64,000 nt of DNA from Rotaria sp. (Eukaryota): assembly GCA_905250055.1 (NCBI GenBank), contig CAJNOF010000042.1, forward strand, positions 481,805 to 545,804, read 5' to 3'. Position 1 is the stretch's first letter. Every line of letters starts with the position of its first letter. The notes under the pieces are model-generated. The model was not told the DNA's origin, did not search any database, and saw nothing but the letters and a program-made list of their open reading frames with translations. Both the position numbers and the translations under genes were made by a program. Positions 1 to 44,659 of the stretch are shown piece after piece.

Positions 1-2902
1 TCGGTAATATTGAATTTTTGAAAGAATGCAAAGATAAATCGCAAGATAACATTTAATGATTTGTATCCAGGTGTAAGTGATGCTAATTGTGTGTAATGCT
101 GATGTTGATCAATAAACATACTATCAACTTCATCGACAATTGCCGCTTCATAAGGTCTGTGAGCACGTACTTCGGTTTGCAAATAAAATTCAGTGCGTAG
201 TAGATCACCAGCAAAATGATTGACCGTTCCGTAGATGATGTGAACATTGTAGTTTGGGCTGTCAGGACGATCATAACAGTTGTGTCCAACCGTCAGATCA
301 AACATTTGATAGAAGGATGCAAATTCCTCGGCATCACGTCGAGCAAGAATTTCTGAAGTGGTAATTATATCGACACGTTTGTTCAATGGAGGAAGGGAAA
401 GATAAACAGCCACTACAGTAGAAAAATACAAGATACATTAAATAAAAATAAACCTTTTTCTTTAAATTTTTGTCCAGTTGCAACCGACCGATCACACTGA
501 TTTGTGGCGGCTTCTTTACATCCGTATTTCGACACAATTTTTTTAAACGTATTGCAACGGCTTTTGGCTGAATTCTGAACTGTACGCTTTTAAATTCAAT
601 CGAACACGTTCGGTTAAAACTTTTTTCAAAACTCAATTGCAAGAATTTCTTCCGAACTAAATAGAATCGATCAGAGCTCAACGGAACTAGAAAGAATAGT
701 TACCAGAAAAAAGTAAACTTATCAGTTTCGACAGCCGCAACTTTGAGTCTCGACTGATATTGATAAGGTTAGGCTATTCTCTGCTTGTTTTCAATGCATT
801 ATTATCATGTATGATGAGTCATTGCACGAGAGCCAACATCAACTTTGCGCAAATCAAGATACTTATGTTCTGATTTTACTCTCAAATAGTTCTAAATGGT
901 TAGTTTTGGGATGAAAAATTTGAGCGATTTACAGGACAAGTTGAGGACAATTTATTTTGCAACGAACTTTTATAGCCCTCATCCAATGGAGTGCGAGGAA
1001 AACGATTCTTTAATTATTAGCTACATAAATCTTCCCGATGACGTTATAAGTTCTTTGATATATTACTTGGTGGGAAATCAATAAAGACATTCTTTCAATG
1101 ACTTTTCAAGCATTGAAATGAAAATGTTTGAACAAACAACAATGCTTTCTCTTAGGTGCGAATTCATAGTAATGACTGAAAATACCTTTACGGTCAATAT
1201 CAATATTTAATTTCATTACCATCCATATTAATACTAGTCAACATGTTTGATCTCAACAGCGAATTGTATTTGTATTGGTAAATATCTAATCATTAATAAG
1301 TTTTATAGAAGATAAATTTTCCTACAAATAATTATAAATATATTTTTGTCTAAAACTTTTTGAATTTTTCGGTCTAGCATCATCAGATGATATTATCACC
1401 TTTTTCATGCACTTAAAACTATCTTACATCGTTAATGACTTTTATTGATCTGAGAAAAACATATTTGTTATCTAATGAACATTTTTGACAAGATACAAAT
1501 ACAGAAATATAGACAGTTAATTTTATCCTTTGAAGAATGGGAATAACGTAGTTGATAGAACTTAAAAGTTATATATAAGAATAAGAATTCAGATTGAATT
1601 ACTGAGAACTCAATAGTGGGATATTATCCAACATGAGTTTAAATTTTGAACTTACACATAGCCACAATAATGGATTTGCCCTCGCCAGTGCGTATTTGTG
1701 CTAATCGTCCTTGACCTTGACGTTGATTTTCAATTAGAAGAAGAAGAGATAGAATCTGAATATCTCTTGGACGATATTGTTCGTGAAGATGTGCTGCTTG
1801 AACAATGACAGCAATCGTATGAAGCTCGTCGTTGTTCACCTGACGTTGCCGAATATCTGAAGATTTCCATCGAGATATTTGTGTTTCGTAATGTTTCATC
1901 ACCATTCGAAATCGTTGTTCCAAGTCGGTTATATCCAAAGATGAATTTTCCTGAGCTAGTTCTTGAAGAAGCATTGAAACTGATTTAGATTTACCTTTTT
2001 CGTCAATAATTTTAGTCACTTCATCCATCCATTGAAGTTCTGAATGCATAGTAATTGCGTTGACAATTCGTTCAATATCCCATGGAAATGATATTTCATT
2101 GGTTAAAATCATTTTAACAACGAGTAACGCTGTTTTCAGTACTGAGACATTTTGTATTTGTAAACTATTGAACATCAGCTCGAGTGATTGAATTGCGTAA
2201 TAGTCCCAATCTAGTTCAGATAATTCGGCAAGAATGGCACTCAATAGGCTTCGATCATCATCTGGTGATTTTTCAACTACATCAAACAAAAATGGGTCTA
2301 TTGCAGTGGTTGAACATGGTTCAAATGAAAGAAGTTGATGAGTCACATAACTATCATTAAGGGATGGCTGGTCGACCATACTAAAAGAAGAAGCAACATA
2401 TCATCTCTTTATAATAAGATCTGAATCTGGAAAAAAGTAAACAGTACCTATTGTTTTGATTATTCAATTGAGGTTGCTGTGGGGATGAAGCGGAATTAAA
2501 AAGTGTCGATGGTGTCAAGTCCATAGTCATAGCTGCTTTTGGGATGATTGCTGGTGCGAAATCGAACGATATTGGATTATTATTGTTATTATTCGACTCA
2601 GATAGAAGTGGAGTGTGAAGATAATCGAGCCATACTTCACATGGAATTTCACCTGATTGTATTACTTGAAGAATCTTATCTACTGGCAACATTGGTACAG
2701 TGACGATATCACGTGTTAAAAGTTCATGTAAATAGCATAGGTTCTTTTCCAACTGTTCTGGCATTGATTTTTCGAATTGACTTGTCCAATCGATGATCGT
2801 TTGTAGTAAACAGTATTTCTGCTCATATGTCCATGATTCCAATGCAAACAAAAGTTCATATACAACTTTATAATGATCCATAGCTTGTTTGGATGATGCC
2901 AT
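1..2902 (-). CDS. SecA-DEAD-like ATPase domain protein (partial; continues beyond window start); exons approx 2902..2448, 2380..1656, 412..1
   Basis: ORFs 2381..2908(-) and 1639..2379(-) join through a 67-nt GT-AG intron (donor aat ag|gtactg, acceptor ttttag|t atg gtc). Exon B ends ...GEGKSIIVAM|gtaagt (phase 1). The acceptor tttctactgtag at 414-413 opens an exon running to position 1. The joined protein reads ...RPRDIQILSLLLLIENQRQGQGRLAQIRTGEGKSIIVAMLAVYLSLPPLNKRVDIITTSEILARRDAEEFASFYQMFDLTVGHN...IIYGTVNHFAGDLLRTEF...RPYEAAIVDEVDSMFIDQ. This is collinear with the bacterial SecA motor: RHFDVQLLGGMVL...[43 protein letters not shown]...GLTVG...ITYGTNNEFGFDYLRDNM...[25 protein letters not shown]. 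About 350 aa N-terminal extension has no recognisable family. The first in-frame ATG is at 2902-2900, with an upstream in-frame stop at 2938. Confidence 0.75.
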
Positions 2903-4273
2903 GATCAAACTGTCTCTTGTTTCACTAAAAATGTATCATTTATACACACTGGTTAATCATCACATGTCACCATAGGTTACCGTAAAGTTGCCAAACCAAA
3001 CAAAATCGATAAGAAAGTGTGTTTGCTAAGCGGTAGAATGTGCGCTTTTTACGGTTTTAAAAACAAAATTATTTTGAAAAAGAAAGCGAGTCGAAAGACG
3101 ATGACTCTCACAAACTTGCTTTTTACAACGAAAACAATTGTTTTTCTACCTTCTTTGAAGGTAAAAAGCGCACATGTTAACGCGTTAAAATGAGGCCTTA
3201 TCAAGAGTGAGTACTGTGCGCAGACGTTAGCACGTGGAATTCTATCGTATGTGGACGTGACTTGGTTGAAAAAAGAAAAGCTCAATAATCATTAACATCC
3301 ACCTACATTCTCAAGAAAAGAAGTCATGAAGCTCACATTTTAATTAAGCATTACTCTAGCCTAATCTGACTTTCGCCTATGTCAAACTGGCATGGTTCAT
3401 ATTCATCCTTCGATCTAGGATTGGACTAGTTCATTTTTTAAATTCTTCTAAGCAAATTAGAGAGTGGACATAGTCTTAACATCAACGCTTGGATTAATAC
3501 ATATGAAAAAATAAGAATAATAATCTACTTTTCGCCAATCGATTCTTGAAGGGGACCTACTCATAATAGGTTTATCACTTAACGTAGTCCAATCTAGCTG
3601 AATTCCTTAGCAATCAGTGACCCTCATGAGAAACGCTTTTGATTTAAACTTTAGTTCGATATACTAAACTAGACCATACTTCTAGCTTATTTAAATTCTA
3701 TTGATGATCTTCAAACGAACTTTTATGTCTTCTTCACTAGAAGGTGTGCTCAGCTGCGATATAGTGACAAATGACTCTGCGGATGTTCCTGATTACTAGT
3801 TTATCAAATGTTGGAATTTCTCTCGTTATATTTTTACTTATTGACTAGGTACACTCTTTTGGTTCCATGAAATATTTTATTCGGTTCCTGAACACATATA
3901 TATGTGTGATCGTTCTTGTTACATCGCGGAATTATTCTTGTGTATCTCTTCTCTCTATTCTTCATCTAACGGAGATACTATCACTATTATCCTTTTCATT
4001 GCTCATGCACCATTACAAGAGCTCGTGGTGGTTTCAAATTAGTCCCTTCACCGTTATTGATGAATATATTCGTTAAAGCAAACTTTATGGAAAAAATGAC
4101 AACTACAATTCCTGAACTCTGTTTTTTTATATGCTCTGTATCGTCTCTAACATCCTGCACTGGTGGAAGCCCATTGTACTGATTCTGATGTTCATATCGG
4201 TTATGCCCCTCTGTATCAATTACATAATTAGTCGAATTATAAGTCTGGATTCGCTCCGTAATTAACATTATTA

Positions 4274-4606
4274 TTGAATGGACTCTTACTACTTTCGGGT
4301 AGGCGTGGGTGTGGGTGTAGGTATTTACGTCAACTACATCAATTCCCACACCCGGAGCACTTAGTCAAAAGGAAAAGACCGTCAAATGAACCTACACCGG
4401 TACGGTTAATATCACGGTACTTTTCATCTTTGATTCCTTCAACTGAAAACGAGCAGCATCCAACAAGATGTTGTTACGTTTGTAGTCATGCACAAAACGA
4501 ATCTAATTGCACAAGAAATAAATCGACACACGAATGTACAAGTTGCAAGGTTGCACTTTGTGTTGATCCATGTTTTCGTGTATATCATACCTTGCTAAAC
4601 TTTTAA
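4274..4606 (+). mobile_element. Remnant of piggyBac-type transposase C-terminal cysteine-rich zinc-finger domain (degraded element)
   Basis: The ORF ends ...KRKRPSNEPTPVR...RCCYVCSHAQNESNCTRNKSTHECTSCKVALCVDPCFRVYHTLLNF*. The CxxC...CxxC...CxxC...C(F)..YH pattern at the extreme C-terminus, preceded by a basic NLS-like stretch, is characteristic of piggyBac-family transposases and PGBD proteins. No intact DDE domain is visible upstream, so I treat it as a fossil. Confidence 0.45.
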
Positions 4607-7141
4607 GCGAAACTTTGAATTTCAAAAACCACTTTTGTAGGATCTCATTTGTTGCGCTTTGCTATTAAAAAAACAACTTCTGTTTGCTATATAAAATAAT
4701 AAAACATGTTTGTCGCAGATTTTTTATATTATCCTTAAATGTTTGTGAATATTTGAAGGTTATAACGTGAAAAGTTCACTGTTTATTTTCAAGCAAAAGT
4801 TAACGATGAAAGGGTTAAACAAACAGGCGGTACAAAAGTTTCTGAATAAATGTCGGTTCATTTTTGATCGACTAAAGCATATGTGAACAAAATCAGAAGT
4901 ATTTGTACATAATCTATGTTGAAATAATATGTGATATGTAAAAGGAAACGAATACCAAAGAAAGTACTGAACCCACATTATGTTGCGACTTCTTTCGGTA
5001 CATTTCATGAGATGGTGTTTATCTTTTTTTATAACAAATTACCGTCTCTATTCTCAACAAATCATGTAGAAAACACTATGGAAATCTTTGAAAATACATG
5101 GAGGGAACTCACTATCTGATCTCTAGCCATTTTTAGATTACTGTTTTTATTATTTTTGCTCGCTGTTCAACTTTGTCATTTCAACTATTTTTATCCAAAA
5201 ATGGCGCCATTCGATTCTTAAAAAAATTTTATTGGCTCATCATCGTTTTCATATTCAGATTTGACATTATTTCTTTCACCATTGCTCGTTAAATTGTCGA
5301 TCACACCATCTAACATGATACTGTATGATTTTCTAGTAAGTTTGTAGAGAATTGAATGGCTTATCCAACTGAGAAAAGAGCAGCATCATACTATCAGTCG
5401 CAATGAACAAAATACAAGAATACTCACCAGAGATACATGTTTCCGTGCCCACTACTTTGAGCTGTTTTTACCAGTCACATTTTAGTCCTAACTAAAGATG
5501 TGCTCTCTACTGAGAGACAAAATATGATAAAACTTCTTTGAATATACATTTAGAAAGAGCTTTCGAGTTTATTCACCCATGTTTTAGTCAATGAAAAATG
5601 GACCAACATTTGTGCAGGAACTTTTGCATCACTGGTTAACACAAAAAATATGTAAAATGAAAGATTTCTCATAGATTACAGTTGCTTTTCACGATAATCG
5701 AACATCAGAATAAGAACCTTTCAAATTTCCGCATTTCAAACGGAAATTGTTTATTTTGTCTTTGCGCGCCCTACTATTTGTTTTCATTGTTATTATTCCC
5801 TCATTATTTTTCTTGTTGTTTTAATTCGCGTTTTTTAATTTAACATTCTTATCATTATAATCATTGAATTAATCGACAAACAAGTCTATTTTACATATTC
5901 ATGATATTTACGGCAGACTTTATGCACTACTGTATATTAATCAACTAACAAACAATGATTTTGACTATATTTCAAAATTACAACTTCATCATTTTTGCAA
6001 AAAAAAAACTCTAAAAAACCTAATGCCTGTTATTCTCGATTACTAAATGTGTGTAATGGGAAGGAGTGGGGAGCCGCAAAAACATGCTTTTAAACTTACA
6101 CTCACCATTTTCTTCGACAATGAATGTGAATTCCTCAAAATCGTCAATTAACCGTTTGTTGTATGATTAAATGTAACAACATATGGCATAGATAAAGGAT
6201 TCGTTACTTACCCAAATACGCAACTCTAATCAACTTGAAATATTGCCATCACTTGATGTTTACACAGTTATATGTTGTTATGCTTTTTCATCTCAATGCA
6301 TCACTTATTCGATATGCATCATCGTATTTCTACTAACCATACATCAAATATGGATCATAGAGTCCCCACAAAACAATTGATTGACCTTACTGACTATCAT
6401 CCAATCATATGAATCTACATGTCGAAAAAATCAATAAATTGCGCAGCAGCAAGCACAACAAGCTGCTGCTCGACAAAATAATTCACTGGTGCATCAACAT
6501 TTTATACAAATGAATCGAAATCAATTAATAATGGCGTCGACTGCATCGCAGCACGCAGGTCAACATCGTCATCATCAAGTACTATTTAAGCAAAAATAAA
6601 ATTCAGAATTATAGCTCATAATTAGCAAATGATTGATATTTGGTCAGCTTACCTATAAATAGTTGAAATGAAGCGGAAAGGTCTCTCAATTAGAAGAACC
6701 AAAATTGCAATAACTTTAGTTGAATTTCATCAGGTATCAGTATTTTGTAGAAATATGCGTCAATTTAACAAAGAAACATAACTCGAAAAGCAAGAAAAAA
6801 AATCTCAAAAACTTCTTCCGATTAAACTAAATTTCACAAAGCATTGTTCTTTTTTTTGTATTCTTTCATTTTAATTCCTTTAAGCTTGAGAATTCGACAA
6901 TACATAATTACAAAACAATACTTTCAAACATCATCTTAGATCGATGTTCCATACCAATTTATGTGACTTAAAGAAATTTTTAAATTTTAATGCACAATCA
7001 CAGATGATTATCAACGAACAATATGATTACGGCATATCTATAAATATGAATATAATCAAGCACACGAAAAAGAATAGACTTTGAACATAGTTTCAAAGGT
7101 AAATACATTTATTCTTCCGTATGTCAAGTAAATGCATTTCA

Positions 7142-7350
7142 TTATGAGTACAGAGCTTGTCCACGCAAAACGTTATTCCGTCACGCTTTGTTTGTTTCAT
7201 TACGTACAAATGATTCAATGTTTAAGAACAAATGTTTTTGCAGTTTTGGACAAAAAATTGTGCTTTTCAAAATGAGAAATTGCAAAGCTGTTCACCACTA
7301 CTCATTCACTATAAACAGAGCGTGACGGAATAACATCTTCCATGGACAGG
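7142..7350. repeat. Short inverted repeat (about 45-bp arms, about 110-bp spacer)
   Basis: The reverse complement of 7142-7190 (gtacagagcttgtccacgcaaaacgttattccgtcacgctttg) matches 7306-7350 (aacagagcgtgacggaataacatcttccatggacaggctctac) with several mismatches. Confidence 0.4.
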
Positions 7351-8079
7351 CTCTACAAACATTTTTTAAGGTCATAAATAATTTTGTTTTTCAAAAATAA
7401 TTATATTTGATTTTGTCTGTAGAAAATTTTCTCTTCAATAGAATCAAATTATACTGTTTTTTACTATTGATAAAACGTGGTTAAGTGTTGAACAACTTTG
7501 AAAATAAAAAGAATAATTTTATTAATTGTTGACGCACTACAAATATAATTAATTATTTCTTATTTTAGAAGAAAAAAAGGCAATCATTTTTTTCTAGGTC
7601 AATGCATATTTTAATTGAAATTAATAAGATCTATAGTTTGACACGCACGTAATGCGGCATCGAAAAAAATAAAGCTGAGAATAGATTAAGGATTGGCAAA
7701 AGAGAGATTTTTTTCAGAAAAAAATGGACACTTTTTTACGCATTTATGATGTTTTTCGAAAACTTGTTTTTGATAAATATCGAGAAACAGGCAATTTTAA
7801 TCTTACTTGTGTATGCTTTGTTCTTGTAAGATATTCGTTGATTGGCGAGATCGATTAATATTCTCTATTTTGTCTTCAACAACTCTACTATGACTGATAA
7901 AAATGCACGGTAAAAATTGTTGACTTGTTTTTTTATCTAAATCATCATTCGTCAAAAGTTCACTTTTTCTCTGACTTGACAAGTCTTTTTAGTCACGCAC
8001 ATGTAATAATTCAGGACCAAGATGAGATCATTAGAGCTGTGTGTCATTAAAGTATAGTGTTTATTTAGATGAGTTAAAA

Positions 8080-9054
8080 ATGGCTTCTGATATAGCCACG
8101 GCTCTTTATATTTTCTCTATTGGAGATCGTCTTTATCAAACTGTCGCTTTGTCAATTATTATTGTAAGTTCAATTGGAAATGTTTGCAATTGTTTAGTTT
8201 TTCTTTGTACTCCACCTTTGAATAAACATCCAAATGCTTTATTCATCATTGGATCATCAGTTGGTAGCTTCTTTTTTATCAATATTGGTCTTCTTTCAGC
8301 TGTTATACGAGTATATAGTGGTATTGATCCATCGAATCGATGGTTATTTTGGTGTAAAGTCGGTACTTGGTTTACTTATTCGGGTGGTTGTTTTAGTTTT
8401 ATGTGTAATTGTTTTGCAGCTCTTGGTCAATTTCTTTTAACATTACCAAGAGCCAAATGGCATCGATTAATCACACATATTCGAGCACAAATAATGATTT
8501 TATGCACAGCAATTATTTGGCTTCTTATTTTCTTACCATTTCCTATATATTATATACACATTCGTTCATCAAGTACAACATTTGTCTGTACTAGTTCTTT
8601 CTCTTTAATCAGTCTCTACGGTACCTATTGGATTATAATTGGTTATTATTTTTTACCAATTATTCTCATATTCACTTTATTTTTTTTGACTTGGTATAAT
8701 TTACAACAACTTTTAAGACGTCGTCGTAGATTAGATGCTGCAGTAACTCGAATGATGCTTATTCAGATGTGTGTTTTATTGATCAGTGGTATACCAGCAG
8801 GCTTTTACTGTTGTTATATTTTGGCTACACAATATGTTTTGAAGACAAGATTACGATTAGCATATGAATATCTTGTTTTACTTGTTCTTACTCTACTTAC
8901 GTATTTTACTAACGGAATTTCTTTTTGGATATATTTATTTGCATCTAAAACCTTTCGAAAACATATCAAAGACTTTGTTTTCAAATTTTCAATATTCAAA
9001 CATCGAGTAGGACCATTACCTGCTCAAGTGACAAGAACAAATGTAAATCGTTAA
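8080..9054 (+). CDS. Intronless rhodopsin-like orphan 7TM receptor (GPCR)
   Basis: Single ORF. The real ATG at 8080 (MASDIATALYIFSIG...) lies downstream of the GTG used by the ORF track. There are seven hydrophobic segments. A basic RRRRRLD stretch follows TM5 and looks like intracellular loop 3. The motif NGISFWIYLF in TM7 is NPxxY-like. The tail is KTFRKHIKDF. No introns. Confidence 0.65.
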   Translation: MASDIATALYIFSIGDRLYQTVALSIIIVSSIGNVCNCLVFLCTPPLNKHPNALFIIGSSVGSFFFINIGLLSAVIRVYSGIDPSNRWLFWCKVGTWFTYSGGCFSFMCNCFAALGQFLLTLPRAKWHRLITHIRAQIMILCTAIIWLLIFLPFPIYYIHIRSSSTTFVCTSSFSLISLYGTYWIIIGYYFLPIILIFTLFFLTWYNLQQLLRRRRRLDAAVTRMMLIQMCVLLISGIPAGFYCCYILATQYVLKTRLRLAYEYLVLLVLTLLTYFTNGISFWIYLFASKTFRKHIKDFVFKFSIFKHRVGPLPAQVTRTNVNR

Positions 9055-9924: not shown

Positions 9925-12364
9925 CTATAGTTGATAACGTTCTGGTGCCATATCGATAAATTCATCAGAAATTTCTGGAATTTCCAGATCGCTAAGGGAA
10001 TCAATAGTTGATTGTGAAATTGGAAAATCCCAACATTTGAACAGTGGCACCAGATTGTATTCTACTTGACGCGAGAAAGTTTCGATCCAATAATCGATCT
10101 TTTCTTGATCAGTGTCAAGCTTTGGTTGGTCTTGTTCGTATTGACGAAAGACAGCCTTATAGCTGTCCCATCCAAACTCTCGTGCCAATTGTGCATATAT
10201 GAAAAGAGCAACACCAGGGTTCTCTTTCCAGACATCAAAACTTGATCCCTTCTTTATATACTTCCATGTATTCTTTATTTGATCCTTGAGCCAAGGATGA
10301 ATCCATACTTGATGATGGCAAATAGTATCCATCGCATGCAAAGTGAAAATATTCACGGTCACTTCATCAGCACCATCGTATGCTAAATGTAATGTTTGTA
10401 ATCGATTTGATTAAGTGTAGCAACAAATCGCATACATACTCCAATAATCTCGTTGCATATTATGACCGATCTCATGAAATAGATCCCATGCACCATTCTT
10501 TTCTAGCTTGTTGCTATTTAGTATGTACCCTTCAGAGAATGGATCAGATACATCCATATGTGTGACAATAGGATAACCACTGTCTAAAATAAGCATTCTT
10601 CTTCAGCAGAGAGCGAAGAAATTCATTACGGGTTCAATATCCTTACGCATGTAGCCAAGTGAAGGTTGCTCGTCACATACAATACGTTCACGATGTGTCG
10701 GTTCTGTACCTCTTAGCTCATGATGAGCAAGTACAACAGCATCCCAATACTGAAGAACTCGATCTAATTGAATACTATCCAAATGAAGTACACTCTTCGA
10801 AGGAACATTAAACACAATATGTCGACCAGCTATATCTGCCCAACGACCTTGTGCGTAGTGATGCCGGTATTACCATGTTGTCGCTCGATTGGAATCAGTG
10901 AGATCGTATGTAGGCGCCAGAACAACATGATGCAAATGAACAGTGATAGAGTTCATTTCATCTTCAGGACTTTCAAGGAAAAGAAGGCCACCAAAAGCTG
11001 AACTCAGTCGAACATGATTGCTAGTCAATGATTTGCAGACAGAAATGCATGACCATCGACGAAGTTCATCGCAGCTCTAATCAGTATATATTTCTATTGT
11101 GCTATAAAAGCAATTCTCGTGAGAAGACATACTTCAAGATCATCGCTGTGACAACCTATTCGCGCTGGGCATCCAGTTGCACCTACTTGTTCTAATACAT
11201 CAATCTGGATGGAAATATCTGCAGCCACATAATATCCTAAGAGAAAGCGAAGACATTGCGACGTATATGCAGGAGAACATTCAACAGTTTGATTATCTTC
11301 TTTCATACCTGTCGAGAACCATTCGCTGAAATTTGATTGAATATGGCACTTAACATTCGTTTCAGTCGATGGTGGTTGATTGAAATCACGCGGAAAATTC
11401 GTCACACCTAGAAGTCGTACTCTACGCATTGCATCTCAAATGACTTACATTTGCTCACCAGAAGCCTTGATACCGGGTAGTACACACAAAATACTACAGA
11501 TACCTATTGATTGTTCTCGACACTATCTATCTTGAATTGGACAATTAATCGATGGAATAACATCGCTATCAGCATTTACGACAGTATTCTGTAGAGTTTC
11601 AACTGGTACACCAGACAATGTATCACCGAACTCTTTGATAGCCAATGCAACGGTGGTCAAGTATTTGATACTATCCGAATAGTTGACAAGATTTTGCACA
11701 ATGTGATAGACATTTTTAAATGCAACTAAGTCGGGTTGAAAAGGAATTGGATCGGGACAATCAATACAATTACCCGTAATTTTCACACCAATATAGTCAC
11801 AGAAACGTGCAAATGGGAAATTCGAGAGAAGTGTACCTTCGTTATGTTCTAGTCAACCCCAGGCAGTTGCTCCACAAATCAGAGAACCTCCATCTTGTAA
11901 ATATGCACACTATAACAAAACACTGATATTTAACAGATCGATAATGAAAAAACAATTATATGTACCAGATCACTCATAAAGGAATCATTCTTCGCCTCAC
12001 GTCCATTCCATATCAGTATTTTACCAGCTCGTGCCACATTATCCATCGAATCTGTATCATTGATCGATTCGAATTCAGTATCATATCCGCGAGCGAGCCA
12101 TTGTAGACAATTTTCAACAAAATCTTGATCTTCGGTTTCATCATTAAGAAAAATCTCGGTACAGCCGTTAAGTGCAAATACTAAACATAGACTGTGACCA
12201 AATTGAGTGGCCACAACGATCACATTGTTGAAGTCTTCACTACACAGAACAGTACGTGTATTATCTGTCATTGGAATGAGAGTTCCTGGTGAGCCAATAT
12301 TACTAAGAGAATCCACACCATCAAACAAAATTTGAGATACTTGATCAAATTCATCGTCAGCCAT
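9925..12364 (-). pseudogene. TCAF-like / peptidase M60-like domain gene, apparently disrupted (in-frame stops plus one frameshift)
   Basis: The real ATG is at 12364-12362 (MADDEFDQVSQILFDGV...). A 56-nt intron follows (ctg|gtacat...ttgttatag). Downstream a HExxH motif reads WDLFHEIGHNMQRDYW, which is M60/enhancin-like as in TRPM8-channel-associated factors. A plausible 49-nt intron removes the TAA between 10411 and 10362 (tgg a|gtatgcg...cattacatttag|CA). The remaining in-frame TGA near 11850 could be removed only by a 9-nt 'intron', which is too short. A TAG/TAA/TGA cluster sits at 11430-11525 with no usable GT donor. The frame changes between ORF 11094..11429 and ORF 10603..10815. Confidence 0.5.
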
Positions 12365-25066: not shown

Positions 25067-25855
25067 AAATTAATATGTATTCGAGAATCAAAGATATTCG
25101 GTTAAAAATTGAATAACTCAAGAACAGTGTGTGTTAGCGATTTGTCCTTTTCACCATAGAAAGAGCACGACGAGGGACACTAATCTATATATGATACGAT
25201 AAGATTCAGTAGTGATGAAGGTTAGAACAATATGAACCTTTGAAAAAAATAGCTTGAACTCACAGATCCATAGAATCATTCTTTTCTTCTTTTATATGGA
25301 TTATAATGATGGCCAGCCACCTATCCATAGCACACAATATCCAGCTATCAATTATTTGATAGTCGAAAGCTTGAAGGTCAGCATGAAGAAGTTATGCAGT
25401 CCTTTATTGAAATATTCTAATAATGTGAAATTTCTCTTGAATAATATATACATACAGGTTATCAATTGTTCTAAAGCGAATGACAAGAGTCAATATGGAT
25501 TGAAAAACAATCTAAAATGCGAAATATATCGTATTCGAGCACATCGATAACATTATTATATAATATTTATAGATTAGACTTTTCTGAACGATTATTAAAA
25601 CTGGTTCATATTTTTTTTTTATTATTTTTTATTAAAAGAAGAAAAAAATGATTCCATGGATCCATGATTTCAATCTATTTTTTTCAACGGTTCATATTTT
25701 TCTAACCTTCATCACTATTGAAGCGCATTTTATCTTACATAGACAAGTGTCCCCGACTGTGCTATTTCTATTTTGAAAAGGACAAATCGCTAAGACATAC
25801 TGTTCTTGAGTTATTCAATTTTTGATCGAGTATCTTTAATTTCCGAATAGACATT
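25067..25855. mobile_element. Non-autonomous element with about 150-bp terminal inverted repeats, present in unit A but absent from unit B
   Basis: 25085-25240 (aatcaaagatattcggttaaaaattgaataactcaagaacagtgtgtgttagcgatttgtccttttcaccatagaaagagcacgacgagggacac...) is the imperfect reverse complement of 25700-25850. Unit B reads ...ttctcatgttgaattataaaactagttcatgtattttaat straight through, which marks an empty site. Confidence 0.5.
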
Positions 25856-28148
25856 AGTTCATGTATTTTAATATATTATCGCATTGCTATGCGATTTCCA
25901 ATTCCAATGACTTCAGACAATACACCTAACCAACTTATTCATTTATCTTTTTCAAGTTTTTTTCATATTACTATTAAAATTTCAATTAATTTGTTGTCTG
26001 AATGATTTTTCGATTTTTGTAGTTTAGTTCAAATTCTATTTCCTTGTATTCTCTTTGCTTTTCCATTAAAATATAAATAAGTATTTTTCTGTGGTATCCA
26101 TTCTCGCATTTTAGAAGTAGTTTTAATTCATGTTCAACTAGTGATCTTTGTTTGCAAGCTATTTATTGCTATATGTCTATTTAAAAAACAAAGAAGGTTT
26201 GTTTTTTTTTCATCGAATTATTTTTAGGATATAGAAGATTACATACAGAGAATAATCGTTTCAATATTTTATGAATCTATCTCTGAGTTTTATGTGTTTT
26301 TACTTTAAGATTTTGTCTCAAAAAATAGTCCTTAAAAATTCTTCATAAAAATCTAATGAGAAAAAAAGCTTTTTTCAAAAGTAATTGAAGAACCATATAT
26401 AGTCATTAGTACTATACTATAAAACAATGCATATTCGAAAGTCACAATTTTTTTTACAAAACTCCTTTATTTTCTTTTCATTTAATCAGTTTCAGACAAT
26501 TAGAACATGGTTTAGATCATCAGTACATAAAGAAAGAAATTCTCGTCGAACTTTCTACGAGATATGTAATTACTTCAATTCTCTTGAACATTTTTAATAG
26601 AATTATTTAAAGTATAAAAGACTTGCTATTGATAGATTATTTTTTGAGTGTTTTCTATGTTAACAGCATAGGAAGGCAACGTGAAAAATATAATCATTTT
26701 TATTGATCATTTATTTATCAAACATACAAGGTTTTGAATTAAAAGTATATCTTTGAAAGTTTCATTATGAAGTAAATCAGTCCAATGTCGATATTCTTAT
26801 AATTTTCAATCAACGTTATAACTTTCAATCATACTTATAACCTTGAATCTTATTTAGAAATAGTTCGATGATAGGCATTAATCAATAGAATTTTCAAGAT
26901 TACTCAAAAATTCTAATATAAAACATCGATGTTTAATTATTTTCTAAATGTTTATCATCAAAATGAGCTGAAAAAAATCACAACTTCATTTTTCTAATTA
27001 ATTTCGATAATAATTGATGCAAACCAAAGTAAGTCGATTAAAGCTTTGTTTTTTTATTTATCACAAAGAAAAATTGATTACAATGTATATGTGTTTTGCA
27101 AAAATTTTAATCAATTATAATCGAAATTGATTGAAAGATTCAATCAGCTTTTGATTTTTTTGTTATAATCATTTTTAAATCTAATTATTATCCTAGGCTT
27201 TTTCTTACATGCATTCAGACAAATGAAAACTATTAGTCATATTCATATCTAAATAAGCTGCACTCACAACAAACATTAAGAAGCCACCATCCACTTGTCC
27301 TTTATGAATAATGTAGCAAGTATTTTTCTTTGCCTTTAACTTATAAAGAAACCATGTTGGCATCTTCTCTTCTTTTTAGTTATATGTGATTATACTGATG
27401 GGGAGTGTTAACTAAATTTCCTCATCATATAAATTGAAAATAATTACCATTTAAGATATATAGAAGTAGAGTAGATATTAGTTTCACTTTATAAATACAA
27501 TTCTCAGTTGTTCACTTTTTAAAGATTATCATTAATCATACAACAACAAAAAAAATATTGTGTTACACCTGCACTCACGCTCGATAGAGAAGTACAAGAA
27601 ACGTAACATGTAAATGAATACATGAAAAATCACTCAAAAACTAATCTATAGATAGTAGTGCTTAACATAATGTATGTATTTTAATTTATTCGATCAAATG
27701 TATCAGTTAAACCCATTTAATTAGGAGTTCCGCTTAGTAAAAATCTACTTAGGAAACCGAAAAGTTAATTAAAATAGTTGATAGCCAAAAGTGCAGTTAA
27801 TGATTGTATCTCAATCAATTTTTTGATTGAAAATTTGATTAGTTCTAAATCTAAAGTGATTAGTTAACCAGTTTTAACTTCTACACTGTGGCCCACACAC
27901 ACACTTAGACTTACAAACTCTACATCACATACACAACGATCTTCACATTCCACACTCTCGTCGACGAGAAAAATGACATCTTGCTGTAGTATAGCATTGA
28001 TTTTTGATATGAATCATTTGAGTAGAAAAATACCAACCTTTTCAATCGATACAATATCAACTTTTTTTTTCACTTTATTTGAATGACTCTTCATGCTTGA
28101 TCGATTTCATTTCGAGTCGAAAATGTTTTTTTCTTTGCCGTTTCTGTA

Positions 28149-28155
28149 TAAATGA
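28149..28155 (+). promoter_or_regulatory. TATA box (tgTATAAATga) about 55 nt upstream of paralogue B ATG; the same motif is at 22827-22836 upstream of paralogue A
   Basis: ctgtataaatgataaaaatatcg precedes ...atatagATGACTTCAATGCAG. ctgtataaataatcaaaatacc is conserved in unit A at the same relative position. Confidence 0.4.
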
Positions 28156-28206
28156 TAAAAATATCGACGAACATCAACATAATTTACCGTTTCTCTTCAT
28201 ATATAG

Positions 28207-29219
28207 ATGACTTCAATGCAGACAAGAGAGTCACGTTATTATCCAATCGATGCAGCTCAATCAGTTCCTCCAAGATCCTTGCGTTTTCGTTCTGGACCAC
28301 TACCACATAAGATCGACCTTCGTCCATGGATGTCTCAGATTGAGCAACAAGGCGACATTGGTTCGTGGTATGTACTTTCATGTGTGGTCTATTTCATTCT
28401 TAAAAAAAAAGTTGTTTTGTTTTCTTTTGCAGTAGTGCCAATGCTTTAGCCGGTGTTCTAGAATATTTGATCAAACGTAAATATAATATTGATATGGATG
28501 TATCTCGTTTATTTATCTATTACAATTCTCGACGAATTGATTTTCAACATTCAATATTAACAGATACTGGAGCCACTCTAACAACCAGTGCCAAAGCAGT
28601 ACGTAAATACGGTGCTTGTGATGAAAAATTTTGGCCATATGATATAAGCTTAGTGAATAAACGGCCGACACCAAACGCATATCGAGCAGCACATCGTTTC
28701 ACTGCCAGACCAGTTAAAATTCCAATAAACTTGCCATCAATAAAAGCATCATTGGCTAATGGTCTACCGATTGCGATTAGTATAATTTTGCGCAATTCAG
28801 CAGGTACTGAGGTGAAGAAAAATGAGGGCTATATATCCATTCCCAATCCCTCATGTACAACAATAAGAAATTCGGAATGGTACTCCGTTGTTATTAGTGG
28901 CTATGATGAAAGAACACAGCATTTTCTAGTACGTAATTCCCGGGGCGAACAATGGGTAAGCAGATATAAAACTACATCTAAAATAATTTCAATCATGTTT
29001 CTCTGGGGTCTCAAAGGCTATTTTTATATTCCATATCAGTATCTATCTATACGATCACTCGTTTACATGGATGACAACGCATGGACCATCAAAGATATCC
29101 TTTACCGCACTCAACATTTGCCGACCATGCTTGTTTTACGTTCAGCCAGACACCGTCGACACAGGAAATATCTACACACTGCATATGATTCGCATCAACA
29201 AAGACGAAACGTACACTAA
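28207..29219 (+). CDS. Papain-fold (family C1-like) cysteine peptidase paralogue B, apparently intact; 3 exons, no signal peptide, no propeptide
   Basis: Exon 1 is 28207..28367: MTSMQTRESRYYPIDAAQSVPPRSLRFRSGPLPHKIDLRPWMSQIEQQGDIGS(C), with donor tg|gtatgt in phase 2. Exon 2 begins after ttttgcag at 28433 with t agt gcc and reads C-SANALAGVLEYLIKRKYNIDMDVSRLFIYYNSRR...GYISIPNPSCTTIRNSEWYSVVISGYDERTQHFLVRNSRGEQW|gtaagc. Exon 3 begins after tctcaaag: GYFYIPYQYLSIRSLVYMDDNAWTIKDILYRTQHLPTML...RRNVH*. The residue positions are Q (-6 from Cys), C in GSC, H in HSIVISGY and N in RNSRGEQWG. The H-N spacing is 16, as in papain. Confidence 0.6.
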
Positions 29220-32200
29220 GGTCTGAGGTGTATGAGATTGGGCCGACGAAAGAAGTTCAACCACTATCCAATCGGTTTTTAGTCGAGGTCATGTGCAATG
29301 TATAGACCTAAATAAACTATGAATATTTTGAAAAGAATTCATGCCCTCAGTTGATTGCTACGAAGTTGCTGCACTGTTACGGCATCGTTCTAATAAATAC
29401 TGCGGCCCGTCTCAGGAACACCAGAAAAATTGATTTTCGAGTTTCGACTCGAAATCTTGTCAAGAGACAGACCTTAACAGGAATACTTTATTGTCAAATT
29501 TTCAGATTCTATCACTGTTCCTATCTGAAGATACAACTTTGGTAATAGTGTGTCTTCCACATTACCCATATAAAACACTGTATTCGCTGTTATCATTCAA
29601 GGATAGAAGCAAGTCAAAAGATATGAAACTGCTATAATAAATTATTCTCCTTAAGGTCTCCCTTTTAGTAAAATTTCGAGTCTAAATTTGAGAATCAATT
29701 TTCTGTTGCTCCCCAAGGGAACCATGGCGTTTATTTAAAAAATATTGTTAAAGTACAGTAACTACATAGTAATAAGCTAAAGTCATGAACTCTTTTCCGA
29801 GTATTCAAAGCTCATTTAGGCTTACATAATTTATATGGTCTTGACTGAAAAGCGATTGAACAGCTGCTGGACGTACCTCGTTATTTCTGGGTGTATGTTC
29901 GCGTAGAATGAGGATGTGTGACTATGAGTGTATACCCATAGCACTCACTCATACGCAAAAATCCTAAAGAAAAATTGTAAAGTATAATTGTTCAAAAAAT
30001 AAAAGTTGTGCTTAAAGTGAAATAAAATAATATATTAAATTAAAAAGTTTTGACATCGATCAATATTTCTTAAAAAGTCTAAGATAAAACAATGCAAAAA
30101 AACAATCGCAACAGTTTCTCATGTTGAATTATAAAACTAGTTCATGTATTTTAATAATTTCTCGCACTGTTAAATGATTTACAATTCGAATAACTTCAGA
30201 CGACATGCATCGCTTATTTTGTATGTATATATTATTTTTTCATATGTGAAACATATGTATGTTGTCGGTTACTTTTTTTTATGTTAATTATGATATTTCG
30301 AATAAAAAAGACTTTTTCTAAACTTAGTCCGTAAAGTTCTCTATAAAGTCTTGTGAAAAGAGTTTTATAATTGGAAAATGATTTGTGCTTTCAACAATAT
30401 TATACTTCAAAAAAAATTTGTAGTAAAAGGCACATCGTAGTTTTCTTTTTTATAAAATTTATCGTTTCTCTTCTTCTGACTAAAGATGCTTCAGAGCATT
30501 CTAAAAAGACGTTTTTTATGTTTTTCAAATGTACTCATTCTATAAACAAGATCATTAAAACATGAATGAAGAAAAACATTCAAAAAAAGTGTTCTATTCA
30601 GATAGACTTACAATCTGATAACAAAAGATATTTTGCACAATTCACTGAGTTTCTCTTAGGTTACAAAGGGCTATATTCATTTGTTTTTTTTTGTAATGTG
30701 ATCAAAGAGAAACACAGTATGATAAAAGCTTTAAACAGTATCTTGAAAGTAGACTTCTTGAGAATTTAGCACTGTTGACCAAGCAAGTTTTTCTAGTTAT
30801 TCTTTTAAAAGACTGTCTTGTGACAAATTTTGTAGAGAATTTCAAGAATTATATTTTGAGAAAAGAACTCAAGTCGAAATATCTAAAATTGAGCGAAAGT
30901 CCTTGAATATGCTTTCCTCTTCCCCCATTGTTATATGGTTAATAGCAAGTGTTTTGCAATTTATATATAAAAATATGTTATAGAGTAATGCATGCATGAT
31001 TTAGTCCCTCAACTTTGCTTTTTATTTGTATTATATTAATACATCTGTTTTCAATAGAATAATCGCAAGCTCTGTTTGATTAGAACATCGCCTCAACAGA
31101 TTATTATATCATCATATAAAGATAGATATTCATTTTATCTAACAAATCGTCGTATAAATAAATACTTTAGATATGATACATAATTGCAAAGAAGCAAAAA
31201 AACAAAGAATAAAATACTACAATCGGATTGAATCATTTCAATATAAAATAAAATCTAATGAAAATAAGTCACTAGATGAATATCAAGTTCATCATCTATG
31301 TTGTCTCAATGAGAACAATTAATAATTGAATGTACGTTTCAATTATATTATAGAATCAGCATTCTAACATTAATAATGAAGAAAATCATATTGTGAGTCA
31401 GAAGCAAAACTAATATATCAATAATATTAGAAGTCAGTTTGATTTAATAGATGTTATTATTCATATGTATTACCCATGGCGCATGTCTACTCAGACTATT
31501 AGTACTATATAGCAGTACTCATAAGAACAGGTATGATAACGCTTTCAACTTTCCTGTTTCAGCTATAAACAATTGCAGAGAGTATTTTCTATACAAATTC
31601 GAATGAATTATTAGAAGAAGTGCGAATAAATCGAAAAGAAAGCTATTTCAAAATATTTTTTTACTTATCAAAAAAAAATTTTGCGACGTCATCTATGATA
31701 CAAATTTATCTGATAATTGAGACCGATTTCGATTCTGTAAGTAGTACAGGCAGCTCAAATGTATCAAATATTACACGAAAAAATCGCAAATGTTTTTATG
31801 GTATCAGTTTAAATAAATTTCAAAAATATTCATCTGTTTGATACAATACATTACGAAGTAAGACTTTCAACATATAACACCGGTCTAGTAAACATTACAG
31901 TAATTAATAAAACGACGGTAGTTGCTCAATAGTTATTACATGTGTATATATTATCTCCTTTATTCAAAATGTTGAAAAGAAGAATCATTGACTCCAGAAT
32001 AGAAAAAAGGAACTTGATGATGTTCTTATAACATTAACTATTCTTTAGAAATTATAAACATATGATTGATAGGTGTCAAATAATTGATTAAATAATAGTA
32101 ATGATGTTTTTTTGAGCTATTGTGAAATAACTATCTTAATGATGATTCATAAGTAACTACCTTTTTCTCATAAAATACACCTCTATTCAATGAAAAAATT

Positions 32201-39764: not shown

Positions 39765-44659
<4,895 letters not shown>

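What the first reader, a model, noticed from the sequence alone, without database searches (positions are those of the whole stretch)
1..30000. Cluster of bacterial-flavoured genes (SecA-like motor, ART toxin-like, prodomain-less C1 peptidases) next to piggyBac debris: candidate horizontally acquired or effector island
Three unrelated gene families typical of bacterial toxins or secretion (SecA-type ATPase, R-S-E ADP-ribosyltransferase, propeptide-less papain-like protease) co-occur in the first 30 kb. They are interspersed with a piggyBac transposase fossil, TTAA-flanked MITEs and a disrupted TCAF-like gene. The second half of the window is ordinary conserved metazoan housekeeping and developmental genes (WDR47, GST, NK6, BCAT, nicastrin). 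The contrast suggests a lineage-specific accessory region, possibly a toxin or effector locus. An ART plus a protease would be a plausible effector pair in a parasite or predator. Transposon-mediated capture of foreign DNA is another possibility.
Basis: inference. Interest (0 to 1): 0.6.

Follow-up and report, generated by a model that had tools for sequence, protein, structure and literature searches.

The report
Rotifer accessory region with bacterial-type genes
The first 30 kb of this window, from the bdelloid rotifer Rotaria sp. Silwood1, is an unstable stretch holding old, domesticated and partly decaying genes of bacterial type, which is the known pattern of foreign-gene accumulation in bdelloids and not a fresh toxin or effector island.

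Summary
The first 30 kb carries the 5' part of a SecA-like ATPase gene, an intact R-S-E ADP-ribosyltransferase (ART) ORF, two tandem prodomain-less C1 peptidase genes and an M60/TCAF-like pseudogene. The second half holds ordinary animal genes such as nicastrin, TMEM17 and a WD40 protein.

The window is 98.2% identical to a 795-kb contig of the bdelloid rotifer Rotaria sp. Silwood1. About 8% of bdelloid genes are of non-metazoan origin, and these cluster with transposons in dynamic regions.

The C1 peptidases (closest to bacterial xylellain-type enzymes) and the SecA-like gene (closest non-eukaryotic relatives are bacterial non-canonical SecA-like proteins) fit old horizontal acquisition. Both have spliceosomal introns and AT-rich codons.

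The ART has a bacterial-toxin fold, but every identified relative is from a rotifer, so transfer is not shown for it.

Nothing supports one co-transferred island or a secreted effector pair:
- The families have different distributions.
- They are not linked in any other locus examined.
- They lack signal peptides.
- Both C1 copies are defective in this haplotype.

Codon GC3 does separate the two halves: 0.25-0.41 for the accessory genes against 0.04-0.16 for the core genes.

Verdict: a new example of a known phenomenon, of modest interest.

The parts
1..2902 (-). 5' part (530 codons) of a SecA-like DEAD-motor ATPase gene. Exons are 2902-2448, 2380-1656 and 412-1. Introns are 67 nt and 1243 nt. 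The gene continues beyond the window.
   Evidence: GT-AG splice sites read from the sequence. Pfam SecA_DEAD E=5e-32. Homologues come only from Rotaria sp. Silwood1/2 and Didymodactylos, then from bacteria. The long intron is at the same position in paralogue L002.
4262..4606 (+). Cysteine-rich C-terminal remnant of a piggyBac-type transposase (weak).
   Evidence: zf-Tnp_2 E=1.6e-4, 22.6 bits, below the 24-bit cut-off. No DDE domain in three-frame translations of 3000-4700.
4298..4325 (+). Degenerate telomere-like (TGTGGG)n tract. Similar short tracts lie near 9715-9745(-), 24139-24150(-) and 27892-27903(-).
   Evidence: 5 matches to (TGTGGG)2 with at most 1 mismatch, against 0.03 expected. 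13 TGTGGG hexamers in the first 32 kb and 0 in the second. TGTGGG is the bdelloid telomeric repeat (PMC8494291).
8041..9054 (+). Intact single-exon ORF of 337 aa, multi-pass membrane protein (7TM-like), family unknown.
   Evidence: ORF list. No Pfam hit at E<=0.1. GC3 0.18.
9925..12364 (-). M60/TCAF-like metallopeptidase pseudogene. Six exons (12364-11966, 11909-11448, 11408-11133, 11076-10647, 10583-10440, 10382-9928). HEIGH motif kept. Three premature stops at 11853-11855, 11523-11525 and 10870-10872.
   Evidence: Spliced CDS of 2166 nt stays in frame with 3 stops. Peptidase_M60 E=1.8e-44 and M60-like_N E=3.7e-8. The other haplotype (L004) shares the TAA and lacks 11210-13479.
15125..15850 (+). 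Intact single-exon R-S-E ADP-ribosyltransferase gene (241 aa), member of a bdelloid-wide multi-copy family.
   Evidence: 161 homologues, all named ones bdelloid, 57-68% identical. Catalytic R, S-x-x-S-x-T and E-x-E invariant. The fold matches Lmo0066, Tre1, C2-I, iota Ia, CDTa and C3. The protein is identical in L004, with 2 synonymous differences. dN/dS<0.1 against A. vaga.
17850..18740 (+). F-box-like gene fragments (rotifer gene between the ART and the C1 duplication).
   Evidence: F-box-like E=7.3e-4, below the cut-off. Overlapping ORFs.
21341..30201 (+). Tandem segmental duplication with a period of about 5.3 kb. The units are 21341-25072 and 26566-30201, 72-88% identical.
   Evidence: the repeat finder families D1-D12.
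22894..23912 (+). C1 peptidase copy a. Exons 22894-23045, 23106-23628 and 23679-23912. In-frame TGA at 23002-23004. The oxyanion Gln is replaced by Leu. Catalytic Cys and His are kept.
   Evidence: P0241 (Rotaria sp. Silwood1) is 99% identical. 100% identical in L004.
24241..24974 (.). TTAA-flanked element of 734 bp with imperfect terminal inverted repeats containing CCCT(C/T)AGA (piggyBac-type MITE candidate).
   Evidence: Single copy in the window. The TTAA/TIR scan as a whole is not above chance.
25072..25856 (.). MITE-like element with 227-nt terminal inverted repeats (84% complementary) and a TA target duplication. It is inserted in duplication unit 1 only.
   Evidence: Inverted repeat I1. 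Empty site in unit 2 at about 30139.
28207..29219 (+). C1 peptidase copy b. Exons 28207-28367, 28433-28955 and 29007-29219. This haplotype carries His->Tyr (TAC 28881-28883), NSWG->NSRG (28941) and loss of the intron-2 acceptor AG->GG (29005). The L004 haplotype is intact at all three sites.

Best explanation
The window comes from the bdelloid rotifer Rotaria sp. Silwood1. Positions 1 to about 31,000 are a dynamic accessory segment of the kind described for bdelloid subtelomeres and internal hotspots of foreign genes. In such segments, lineage-specific and horizontally derived gene families accumulate, duplicate and decay next to transposon remnants. The bacterial-type genes arrived separately and long ago and have been domesticated.

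1. C1 peptidases. These belong to a bdelloid-wide expansion of bacterial xylellain-type enzymes that lack a prodomain. Intron positions are shared with Adineta. Here they form a tandem pair, both defective in this haplotype.

2. SecA-like gene. It belongs to a patchily distributed rotifer family whose annotated full-length paralogue has only the two-lobed SecA ATPase motor behind a rotifer-specific N-terminal region of about 290 residues. It is related to non-canonical bacterial SecA-like proteins. It therefore cannot be a preprotein translocase in the classical sense (inferred).

3. ART. It is an intact, selectively maintained, cytosolic minimal C3/VIP2-like enzyme. Its E-x-E motif predicts arginine-specific mono-ADP-ribosylation of an intracellular target (inferred). 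Its family is bdelloid-restricted, and a bacterial origin is not demonstrable.

The adjacency of the three reflects the regional biology: low constraint, duplication and insertion. It does not reflect a shared function or a joint transfer.
For: Identity of the organism and integration:
- 98.26% identity over 17.8 kb to GCA_905331535.1 contig CAJNZB010000042.1 (795 kb), continuing into the core genes.
- GT-AG introns in the SecA-like, C1 and M60-like genes.

C1 peptidases:
- Xylellain 3ois E=1.6e-32 against cathepsins at 1.3e-9 or weaker.
- Bacterial C1 peptidases at 40-43% identity and E~1e-46, level with rotifer paralogues from Adineta, Rotaria and Didymodactylos.
- In a neighbour-joining tree the rotifer sequences form their own clades.
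- A. vaga P0246 has the same three-exon layout.

SecA-like:
- After the rotifer hits and some unnamed ones come Cardinium (E=1.5e-28) and P0141. P0141 lies on a 55%-GC bacterial contig next to an ankyrin-repeat gene. Canonical SecA scores E~1e-17.
- Paralogue P0125 has SecA_DEAD and P-loop_SecA but no wing/scaffold or SEC-C domain. It scores 169 bits against an NCBIfam SecA cut-off of 862.

ART:
- Invariant R, S-x-x-S-x-T and E-x-E motifs and a toxin-like fold.
- Only synonymous differences between haplotypes; dN/dS<0.1.

Regional character:
- GC3 0.25-0.41 against 0.04-0.16. Non-ORF GC 0.29-0.31 against 0.25-0.27.
- Telomere-like repeats occur only in the first half.
- A 5.3-kb tandem duplication and a MITE insertion.
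- A pseudogene with 3 stops.
- A 2.27-kb indel and allele-specific inactivation of C1b between haplotypes.

Published background: in A. vaga 8.3% of genes are candidates for horizontal transfer. They are enriched with transposons, haplotype divergence and allelic deletions in subtelomeres, with some internal hotspots (PMC8494291).
Against: - The position of the segment relative to a telomere is unknown. It lies about 190-255 kb into a 795-kb contig.
- The telomere-like tracts are short and degenerate.
- Age and independence of the acquisitions are inferred from distribution and intron sharing, not from full phylogenies.
- P0376, an unnamed hit from an AT-rich eukaryotic contig, is closer to the SecA-like gene than any identified bacterial protein. 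The donor and the direction of transfer are therefore not settled.
- Lack of linkage was tested at only five other loci with 10-kb flanks.
- The GC3 contrast could reflect expression level rather than origin.
- No expression data for these genes were examined.
Confidence: 0.75

Rival explanations
1. A single block of bacterial DNA (a toxin or secretion island), perhaps captured with the help of a piggyBac element, was inserted here and is specific to this lineage.
For: Three bacterial-type families lie within 30 kb, near a possible piggyBac remnant and MITE-like elements. The compositional break falls at about 31 kb.
Against: - The genes are interleaved with rotifer genes and a pseudogene, and lie on both strands.
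- All have eukaryotic introns or AT-rich codons (GC3 0.25-0.41), unlike the 55%-GC bacterial relative.
- The C1 and ART families occur in Adineta, Rotaria and Didymodactylos with many paralogues. SecA-like hits came only from Rotaria Silwood1/2 and Didymodactylos among named species.
- There is no linkage in A. vaga or in metagenomic rotifer contigs.
- The piggyBac evidence is below threshold.
Confidence: 0.04
2. A working toxin/effector locus: the ART and the C1 protease are secreted together and act on prey, host or competitors.
For: The ART fold and motifs match secreted bacterial toxins. The ART is under purifying selection.
Against: - There are no signal-peptide-like N-termini. The maximum Kyte-Doolittle value over 10 residues is 0.03-1.6, against 3.1 for nicastrin.
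- C1a has a stop codon and has lost its oxyanion Gln. C1b in this haplotype has lost its catalytic His and a splice site.
- The ART is not next to a C1 gene at the other loci examined.
- Bdelloids are free-living filter and scraper feeders (general knowledge).
Confidence: 0.04
3. Bacterial contamination or a chimeric assembly joins foreign DNA to rotifer DNA.
For: Bacterial-type protein families; the ART and SecA-like genes are not annotated in the public assemblies.
Against: - Spliceosomal introns are present.
- GC is 30-39%, with rotifer-like codon third positions.
- An independent assembly covers 10.8-32.7 kb collinearly at 98% identity and runs into the core genes.
- Paralogues lie on chromosome-scale A. 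vaga scaffolds.
Confidence: 0.01
4. The genes are old, vertically inherited animal genes that were lost elsewhere or diverged quickly. This applies most to the ART, which could derive from the large rotifer ART-TPR family.
For: - The ART profile finds only rotifer proteins among the identified hits. The remote hits are rotifer ART-TPR proteins with PF01129/PF03496 domains.
- The A. vaga annotation lists 431 genes under arginine ADP-ribosyltransferase activity (PMC11258130 Supplementary Data 3).
- A SecA-like gene sits on an unidentified AT-rich eukaryotic contig.
Against: - For C1 and SecA-like, no non-rotifer animal appears among the 120 best hits, while bacteria do.
- C1 is 75 bits closer to a bacterial enzyme than to any animal cathepsin among solved structures.
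Confidence: 0.15

Closest known systems
Bdelloid rotifer foreign-gene regions (Gladyshev et al. 2008; A. vaga subtelomeres and internal HGT hotspots, PMC8494291)
   Same: Non-metazoan-type genes with introns sit beside transposon remnants, telomere-like repeats, pseudogenes, tandem duplications and structural differences between haplotypes, next to ordinary animal genes.
   Different: The telomere-proximal position is not shown: the segment lies about 200 kb inside a 795-kb contig. The species is Rotaria sp. Silwood1. In two literature searches I found no paper that mentions these gene families in bdelloids.
C2/C3/VIP2-type R-S-E ADP-ribosyltransferase toxins (Lmo0066, Tre1, C2-I, iota Ia, CDTa, C3)
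   Same: Predicted fold and the R, S-x-x-S-x-T and E-x-E catalytic motifs. Size similar to the C3 exoenzymes.
   Different: No sequence-level Pfam or NCBIfam match. No signal peptide, translocation partner or immunity gene. The gene is encoded in an animal genome as a conserved multi-copy family.
Xylellain-type bacterial C1 peptidases (PDB 3ois)
   Same: Best solved relative, E=1.6e-32, aligned over the whole catalytic domain. No I29 prodomain.
   Different: Three-exon rotifer genes. Both copies in this haplotype carry inactivating changes.
SecA / SecA2 preprotein translocase ATPases
   Same: NBD1 DEAD motor with Walker A and DEVD motifs. Paralogues also have NBD2.
   Different: There is a 290-residue rotifer-specific N-terminal extension. 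The paralogue has no wing/scaffold (PF07516) or SEC-C domain. Scores are far below the curated SecA cut-offs. The closest relatives are non-canonical bacterial SecA-like proteins, one of them adjacent to an ankyrin-repeat gene.
TCAF / M60-like (enhancin-type) metallopeptidases
   Same: M60-like_N and Peptidase_M60 domains with an HEIGH motif.
   Different: Pseudogene with three premature stops, and its 5' part is deleted in the other haplotype. Its origin, animal or foreign, was not tested.

Membership tests
SecA preprotein translocase | NBD1 DEAD-like motor with Walker A/B | tested here: met
   SecA_DEAD E=5e-32. 'RTGEGKS' and 'DEVDS' motifs.
SecA preprotein translocase | NBD2 (P-loop_SecA) and preprotein cross-linking domain | tested here: inconclusive
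   These parts lie off the window. Paralogue P0125 has P-loop_SecA at 2.2e-14, but SecA_PP_bind only at 0.0029, below the cut-off.
SecA preprotein translocase | Helical scaffold/wing domain (PF07516) and C-terminal SEC-C zinc site; score above the curated family cut-off | tested here: not met
   No PF07516 or PF02810 in paralogue P0125 or in the precomputed Pfam lists of the other rotifer models. P0125 scores 169 bits against a cut-off of 862.
R-S-E ADP-ribosyltransferase toxins (C2/C3/VIP2 type) | Catalytic Arg, S-T-S-like motif and (Q/E)-x-E motif | tested here: met
   R127, S151/S154/T156 and E196-K-E198 are invariant in 21 sequences. They align with the motifs of Lmo0066.
R-S-E ADP-ribosyltransferase toxins (C2/C3/VIP2 type) | ART fold | tested here: met
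   Foldseek against PDB: the 50 best hits listed are all ART toxins, E=4e-9 to 2e-6. The model's mean pLDDT is 64.7, and about 77-89 over most of the catalytic half.
R-S-E ADP-ribosyltransferase toxins (C2/C3/VIP2 type) | Sequence membership in PF03496 / PF01129 | tested here: not met
   No Pfam hit at E<=0.01. Linked only through remote profile hits at E=1e-7 to 1e-4.
R-S-E ADP-ribosyltransferase toxins (C2/C3/VIP2 type) | Export signal, delivery partner or immunity protein | tested here: not met
   No hydrophobic N-terminus. No ADP-ribosylhydrolase or binding-component gene among the neighbours here or in L001/L007.
R-S-E ADP-ribosyltransferase toxins (C2/C3/VIP2 type) | NAD-dependent ADP-ribosylation activity | not testable with these tools
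   Needs a biochemical assay.
Papain-like C1 cysteine peptidase | Pfam Peptidase_C1 above the cut-off | tested here: met
   31.2 bits against 20.7 for exon 2 of C1a. Xylellain 1.6e-32.
Papain-like C1 cysteine peptidase | Complete Gln-Cys-His-Asn catalytic set in an open reading frame | tested here: not met
   C1a has Gln->Leu and a TGA at 23002. C1b in the window allele has His->Tyr and has lost a splice acceptor. The L004 allele of C1b is complete.
Papain-like C1 cysteine peptidase | I29-type inhibitory prodomain (typical of animal cathepsins) | tested here: not met
   Only about 30 residues precede the mature-domain start, and there is no I29 hit. This confirms 'prodomain-less'.
Bdelloid horizontally acquired gene (usual operational criteria) | Best non-metazoan hit much stronger than best non-rotifer metazoan hit, with physical integration next to animal genes and introns | tested here: met
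   Met for C1 and SecA-like. Integration shown. Not met for the ART, which has no identifiable non-rotifer hit.
piggyBac transposon | DDE_Tnp_1_7 transposase core, TTAA target duplication and terminal repeats around it | tested here: not met
   Only zf-Tnp_2 below the cut-off. No DDE match. No TIR/TTAA pair bracketing 3000-4700.
M60-like / TCAF peptidase | M60-like_N plus Peptidase_M60 with HExxH, in an intact ORF | tested here: not met
   The domains and HEIGH are present, but there are three premature stops.

The most novel reading that the evidence does not exclude
The intact ART of about 230 residues represents a bdelloid-wide, cytosolic family that no Pfam or NCBIfam model detects. It would be a domesticated toxin-type arginine ADP-ribosyltransferase serving in rotifer defence or stress signalling. 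The rotifer SecA-like ATPases would be a second, independently domesticated bacterial motor in the same kind of dynamic region, comparable to the horizontally acquired NRPS/PKS clusters that bdelloids switch on against fungi.
Probability: 0.15. Interest if true: 0.55.

Novelty: new member of a known kind. Interest (0 to 1): 0.3.

Why it matters
The finding adds a worked example, in Rotaria, of how bdelloid genomes store foreign-type genes. The genes sit in a compositionally distinct, rearranging segment, where they duplicate and decay at different rates on the two haplotypes.

It also flags two families that deserve attention from rotifer biologists:
- A strongly conserved minimal ART that domain databases miss. 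Its copy here is not annotated in the one public assembly locus examined.
- A SecA-motor family without translocase domains whose closest identified bacterial relatives include an endosymbiont protein.

It does not change any general picture.

Tried and rejected
- Exact-protein look-ups of the ART ORF and of P0123 found nothing on record.
- phmmer and profile searches of the ART against PDB sequences gave only a weak hit to Lmo0066, E=0.59 and 0.1. The fold search was needed to settle the fold.
- PADLOC gave no meaningful defence-system match for the ART, C1 or SecA-like proteins.
- NCBIfam gave nothing for the ART and only sub-threshold hits for C1.
- No tRNA genes and no Rfam families were found in the window.
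- Full-text searches for bdelloid + ADP-ribosyltransferase + horizontal gene transfer, and for bdelloid + SecA, returned no paper on these genes.
- The TTAA-flanked TIR scan was not above shuffled expectation.
- I first read three in-frame stops in 9928-11076 of the M60-like gene. Two of them turned out to lie in short in-frame introns. The pseudogene call rests on three other positions after splicing.
- I considered an alternative genetic code for the in-frame stops and rejected it, because the neighbouring genes are open with the standard code.
- Cross-species synteny could not be tested properly. The tools reach rotifer genomes only through exact protein look-ups with 10-kb flanks.

Full report
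**Source organism.** The window is AT-rich: GC is 0.30-0.39 in the first 30 kb and 0.23-0.29 in most of the rest. Its genes have short GT-AG introns. A C1 peptidase fragment from the window is 99% identical to a protein of Rotaria sp. Silwood1. The DNA around that protein is contig CAJNZB010000042.1 of GCA_905331535.1, 795 kb, fetched as locus L004. It aligns to window 13480-31190 at 98.26% identity and onward to 32708. The species is a bdelloid rotifer of the family Philodinidae. The window is therefore another haplotype or isolate of that species, and the left half is physically continuous with the right half in an independent assembly.

**What is in 1-30 kb.**

- *SecA-like gene, minus strand.* Exons are 2902-2448, 2380-1656 and 412-1, and the gene runs off the window. 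The introns are 67 and 1243 nt. The 530 residues visible consist of a family-specific N-terminal region of about 290 residues followed by a SecA DEAD motor (Pfam E=5e-32).
- *Possible piggyBac remnant, 4262-4606.* It is a cysteine-rich ORF resembling the piggyBac C-terminal zinc finger, but it scores below Pfam's cut-off and has no transposase core upstream.
- *7TM-like ORF, 8041-9054.* It is intact and matches no family.
- *M60/TCAF-like gene, 12364-9925(-).* After removing five short introns, the 2166-nt CDS stays in frame but carries three premature stops. The other haplotype shares at least one of these stops and lacks 2.27 kb (window 11210-13479) that includes the 5' exons. It is a pseudogene.
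- *ART ORF, 15125-15850(+).* It is intact and encodes 241 residues.
- *F-box-like gene*, around 17850-18740.
- *Tandem duplication, period about 5.3 kb.* The units are 21341-25072 and 26566-30201, 72-88% identical. Each unit carries a three-exon C1 peptidase gene.
- *Mobile-element traces.* Unit 1 has since received a 785-bp MITE-like element with 227-nt inverted ends and a TA target duplication. The empty site is preserved in unit 2. A TTAA-flanked 734-bp element at 24241-24974 is a weaker candidate.

**The ART.** It has no Pfam or NCBIfam match. It has 161 homologues at 57-68% identity, and every named one comes from Adineta or Rotaria. Several species carry many copies, and A. vaga has a tandem pair. 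Among 21 sequences, R127 (YYRG), S151/S154/T156 and E196-K-E198 are invariant.

An AlphaFold model has mean pLDDT 64.7, and about 77-89 over most of the catalytic half. Foldseek matched it to bacterial R-S-E toxins only: Listeria Lmo0066, Serratia Tre1, C2-I, iota Ia, CDTa, VahC, Vis, C3 and SpvB, at E=4e-9 to 2e-6.

The protein is identical in the second haplotype. There are 2 synonymous differences in 726 nt, while the surrounding DNA differs by 1.8%. dN/dS against A. vaga copies is below 0.1, with dS saturated. It is therefore a maintained gene. It has no hydrophobic N-terminus.

A profile search of 1.84 billion representative proteins gave only 56 hits. The close ones are bdelloid, including Didymodactylos. 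The remote ones that could be identified are rotifer ART-TPR proteins carrying PF01129/PF03496 domains. The toxin-like fold is real, but a bacterial origin for this family cannot be shown.

Bdelloids have a very large ART repertoire. The A. vaga annotation lists 431 genes under arginine ADP-ribosyltransferase activity, and the term was over-represented among genes down-regulated 7 h after fungal challenge (PMC11258130 Supplementary Data 3).

**The C1 peptidases.** The best solved relative is bacterial xylellain (3ois, E=1.6e-32, 116 bits). Animal cathepsins score 41 bits or less. In the large protein search, bacterial C1 peptidases score as well as rotifer paralogues from Adineta, Rotaria and Didymodactylos. 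The bacteria include Leptospira, cyanobacteria, Polyangiaceae, Emticicia and Beggiatoa, at 40-43% identity and E~1e-46. No non-rotifer animal is in the top 120.

In a neighbour-joining tree the rotifer sequences form one large clade. A smaller, long-branched clade holds the two window copies and A. vaga P0246. P0246 has the same three-exon layout but unrelated neighbours: a P450, LRR proteins, a receptor phosphatase and a bZIP protein. This fits an old acquisition followed by expansion.

In this window:
- C1a has an in-frame TGA (23002-23004) and has lost the oxyanion Gln.
- C1b has Tyr in place of the catalytic His, Arg in place of the conserved Trp of NSWG, and GG in place of the intron-2 acceptor AG.
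- The other haplotype has the functional state at all three C1b positions.

**The SecA-like gene.** Named rotifer homologues come only from Rotaria sp. Silwood1/2 and Didymodactylos, at 35-79% identity. No Adineta protein is among the 120 listed hits.

The next hits are unnamed metagenomic proteins. One of these clusters (P0135/P0376, 46% identical over the motor) maps to an AT-rich eukaryotic contig carrying AP3D1, THOC1 and Ras genes. Then come a Candidatus Cardinium protein (E=1.5e-28) and P0141. P0141 lies on a 55%-GC bacterial contig directly downstream of an ankyrin-repeat gene. Canonical SecA proteins follow at E~1e-17.

The annotated full-length rotifer paralogue has both ATPase lobes but no wing/scaffold or SEC-C domain. 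It scores 169 bits against a curated SecA cut-off of 862. The long intron is at the same position in a 53-72% identical paralogue, so the gene has been resident for a long time.

*Composition supports an accessory segment.*
- GC3 is 0.25-0.41 for the SecA-like, ART, C1 and M60-like genes, and 0.18 for the 7TM ORF. It is 0.04-0.16 for nine core-gene exons.
- Non-ORF GC differs only slightly, 0.29-0.31 against 0.25-0.27.
- Degenerate telomere-like TGTGGG tracts occur only in the first half: 13 hexamers against 0, and 5 dimer matches against 0.03 expected.

*Linkage does not support an island.* Three ART loci, two C1 loci and one SecA-like locus from other genomes or contigs share nothing with the window beyond the gene itself. 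In A. vaga, the locus tags of ART and C1 family members are hundreds to thousands of genes apart.

The genes are interleaved with rotifer genes and have different phyletic distributions. This matches the published description of bdelloid genomes. In A. vaga 8.3% of genes are candidates for horizontal transfer. They are enriched in subtelomeres together with transposons, haplotype divergence and allelic deletions, and there are a few internal hotspots (PMC8494291).

**Conclusion.**
- The 'horizontally acquired' reading is right for the C1 and SecA-like genes, but as old and separate events.
- For the ART, horizontal transfer remains unproven.
- The 'effector pair' and 'captured island' readings are not supported.
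- What remains of interest is the conserved, database-invisible ART family and the motor-only SecA-like family. Both are leads rather than findings.

Noticed in passing
window 15125-15850; L004 2121-2846: The intact, conserved ART ORF is not among the called genes of the public Rotaria sp. Silwood1 locus, and no protein more than 68% identical is in the protein collection. The gene appears to be unannotated.
   Followed up: partly
window 28881, 28941, 29005: Three inactivating changes in C1 copy b (His->Tyr, Trp->Arg, splice acceptor AG->GG) are present in this haplotype only. The L004 haplotype has the functional state at all three positions, so decay is allele-specific.
   Followed up: yes
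window 11210-13479: A 2.27-kb stretch containing the 5' exons of the M60-like pseudogene is absent from the L004 haplotype.
   Followed up: partly
window 30250-31190; L004 17254-19133: A segment of about 940 bp is single-copy in the window but aligns twice in tandem in L004, another structural difference between haplotypes.
   Followed up: no
window 4298-4325, ~9715-9745, 24139-24150, 27892-27903: Short degenerate tracts of the bdelloid telomeric repeat TGTGGG occur only in the first half of the window.
   Followed up: partly
window 32000-64000 (e.g. 58382-59575, 61067-62011, 40940-41443): Core genes have extremely AT-biased third codon positions (GC3 0.04-0.16). This is well below the non-ORF GC of 0.25-0.27, which suggests selection or a bias beyond mutation pressure.
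   Followed up: no
alignment A1, N-terminus of the ART family: Cys4 is nearly invariant, and two members start with Met-Gly-Cys. This hints at N-terminal lipidation and membrane attachment of these cytosolic ARTs.
   Followed up: no
L001 (A. vaga CP075496.1:9861053-9881769): Two ART paralogues lie in tandem (dS 0.065, dN/dS 0.30). They are followed by an ankyrin-repeat gene and, about 9 kb downstream, a 2237-residue protein with ankyrin, helicase and PARP domains.
   Followed up: no
L009 (JGI 3300071516 Ga0620986_00186) 7211-17006: An unidentified AT-rich (24.5% GC) eukaryotic contig carries a SecA_DEAD ORF and a P-loop_SecA ORF flanked by two long ORFs with no family match. Together they may form one giant SecA-like gene.
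   Followed up: no
L005 2177-5611: In a 55%-GC bacterial contig, the non-canonical SecA-like gene starts 9 bp after an ankyrin-repeat gene and lies close to a DDE_3 transposase. This arrangement would suit a host-associated bacterium.
   Followed up: no
window 413-1655: The 1243-nt intron of the SecA-like gene is very long for a bdelloid intron, which is typically around 50-60 nt (general knowledge). No inverted repeats or other copies were found in the window, and the paralogue L002 has a similarly long intron at the same position.
   Followed up: partly
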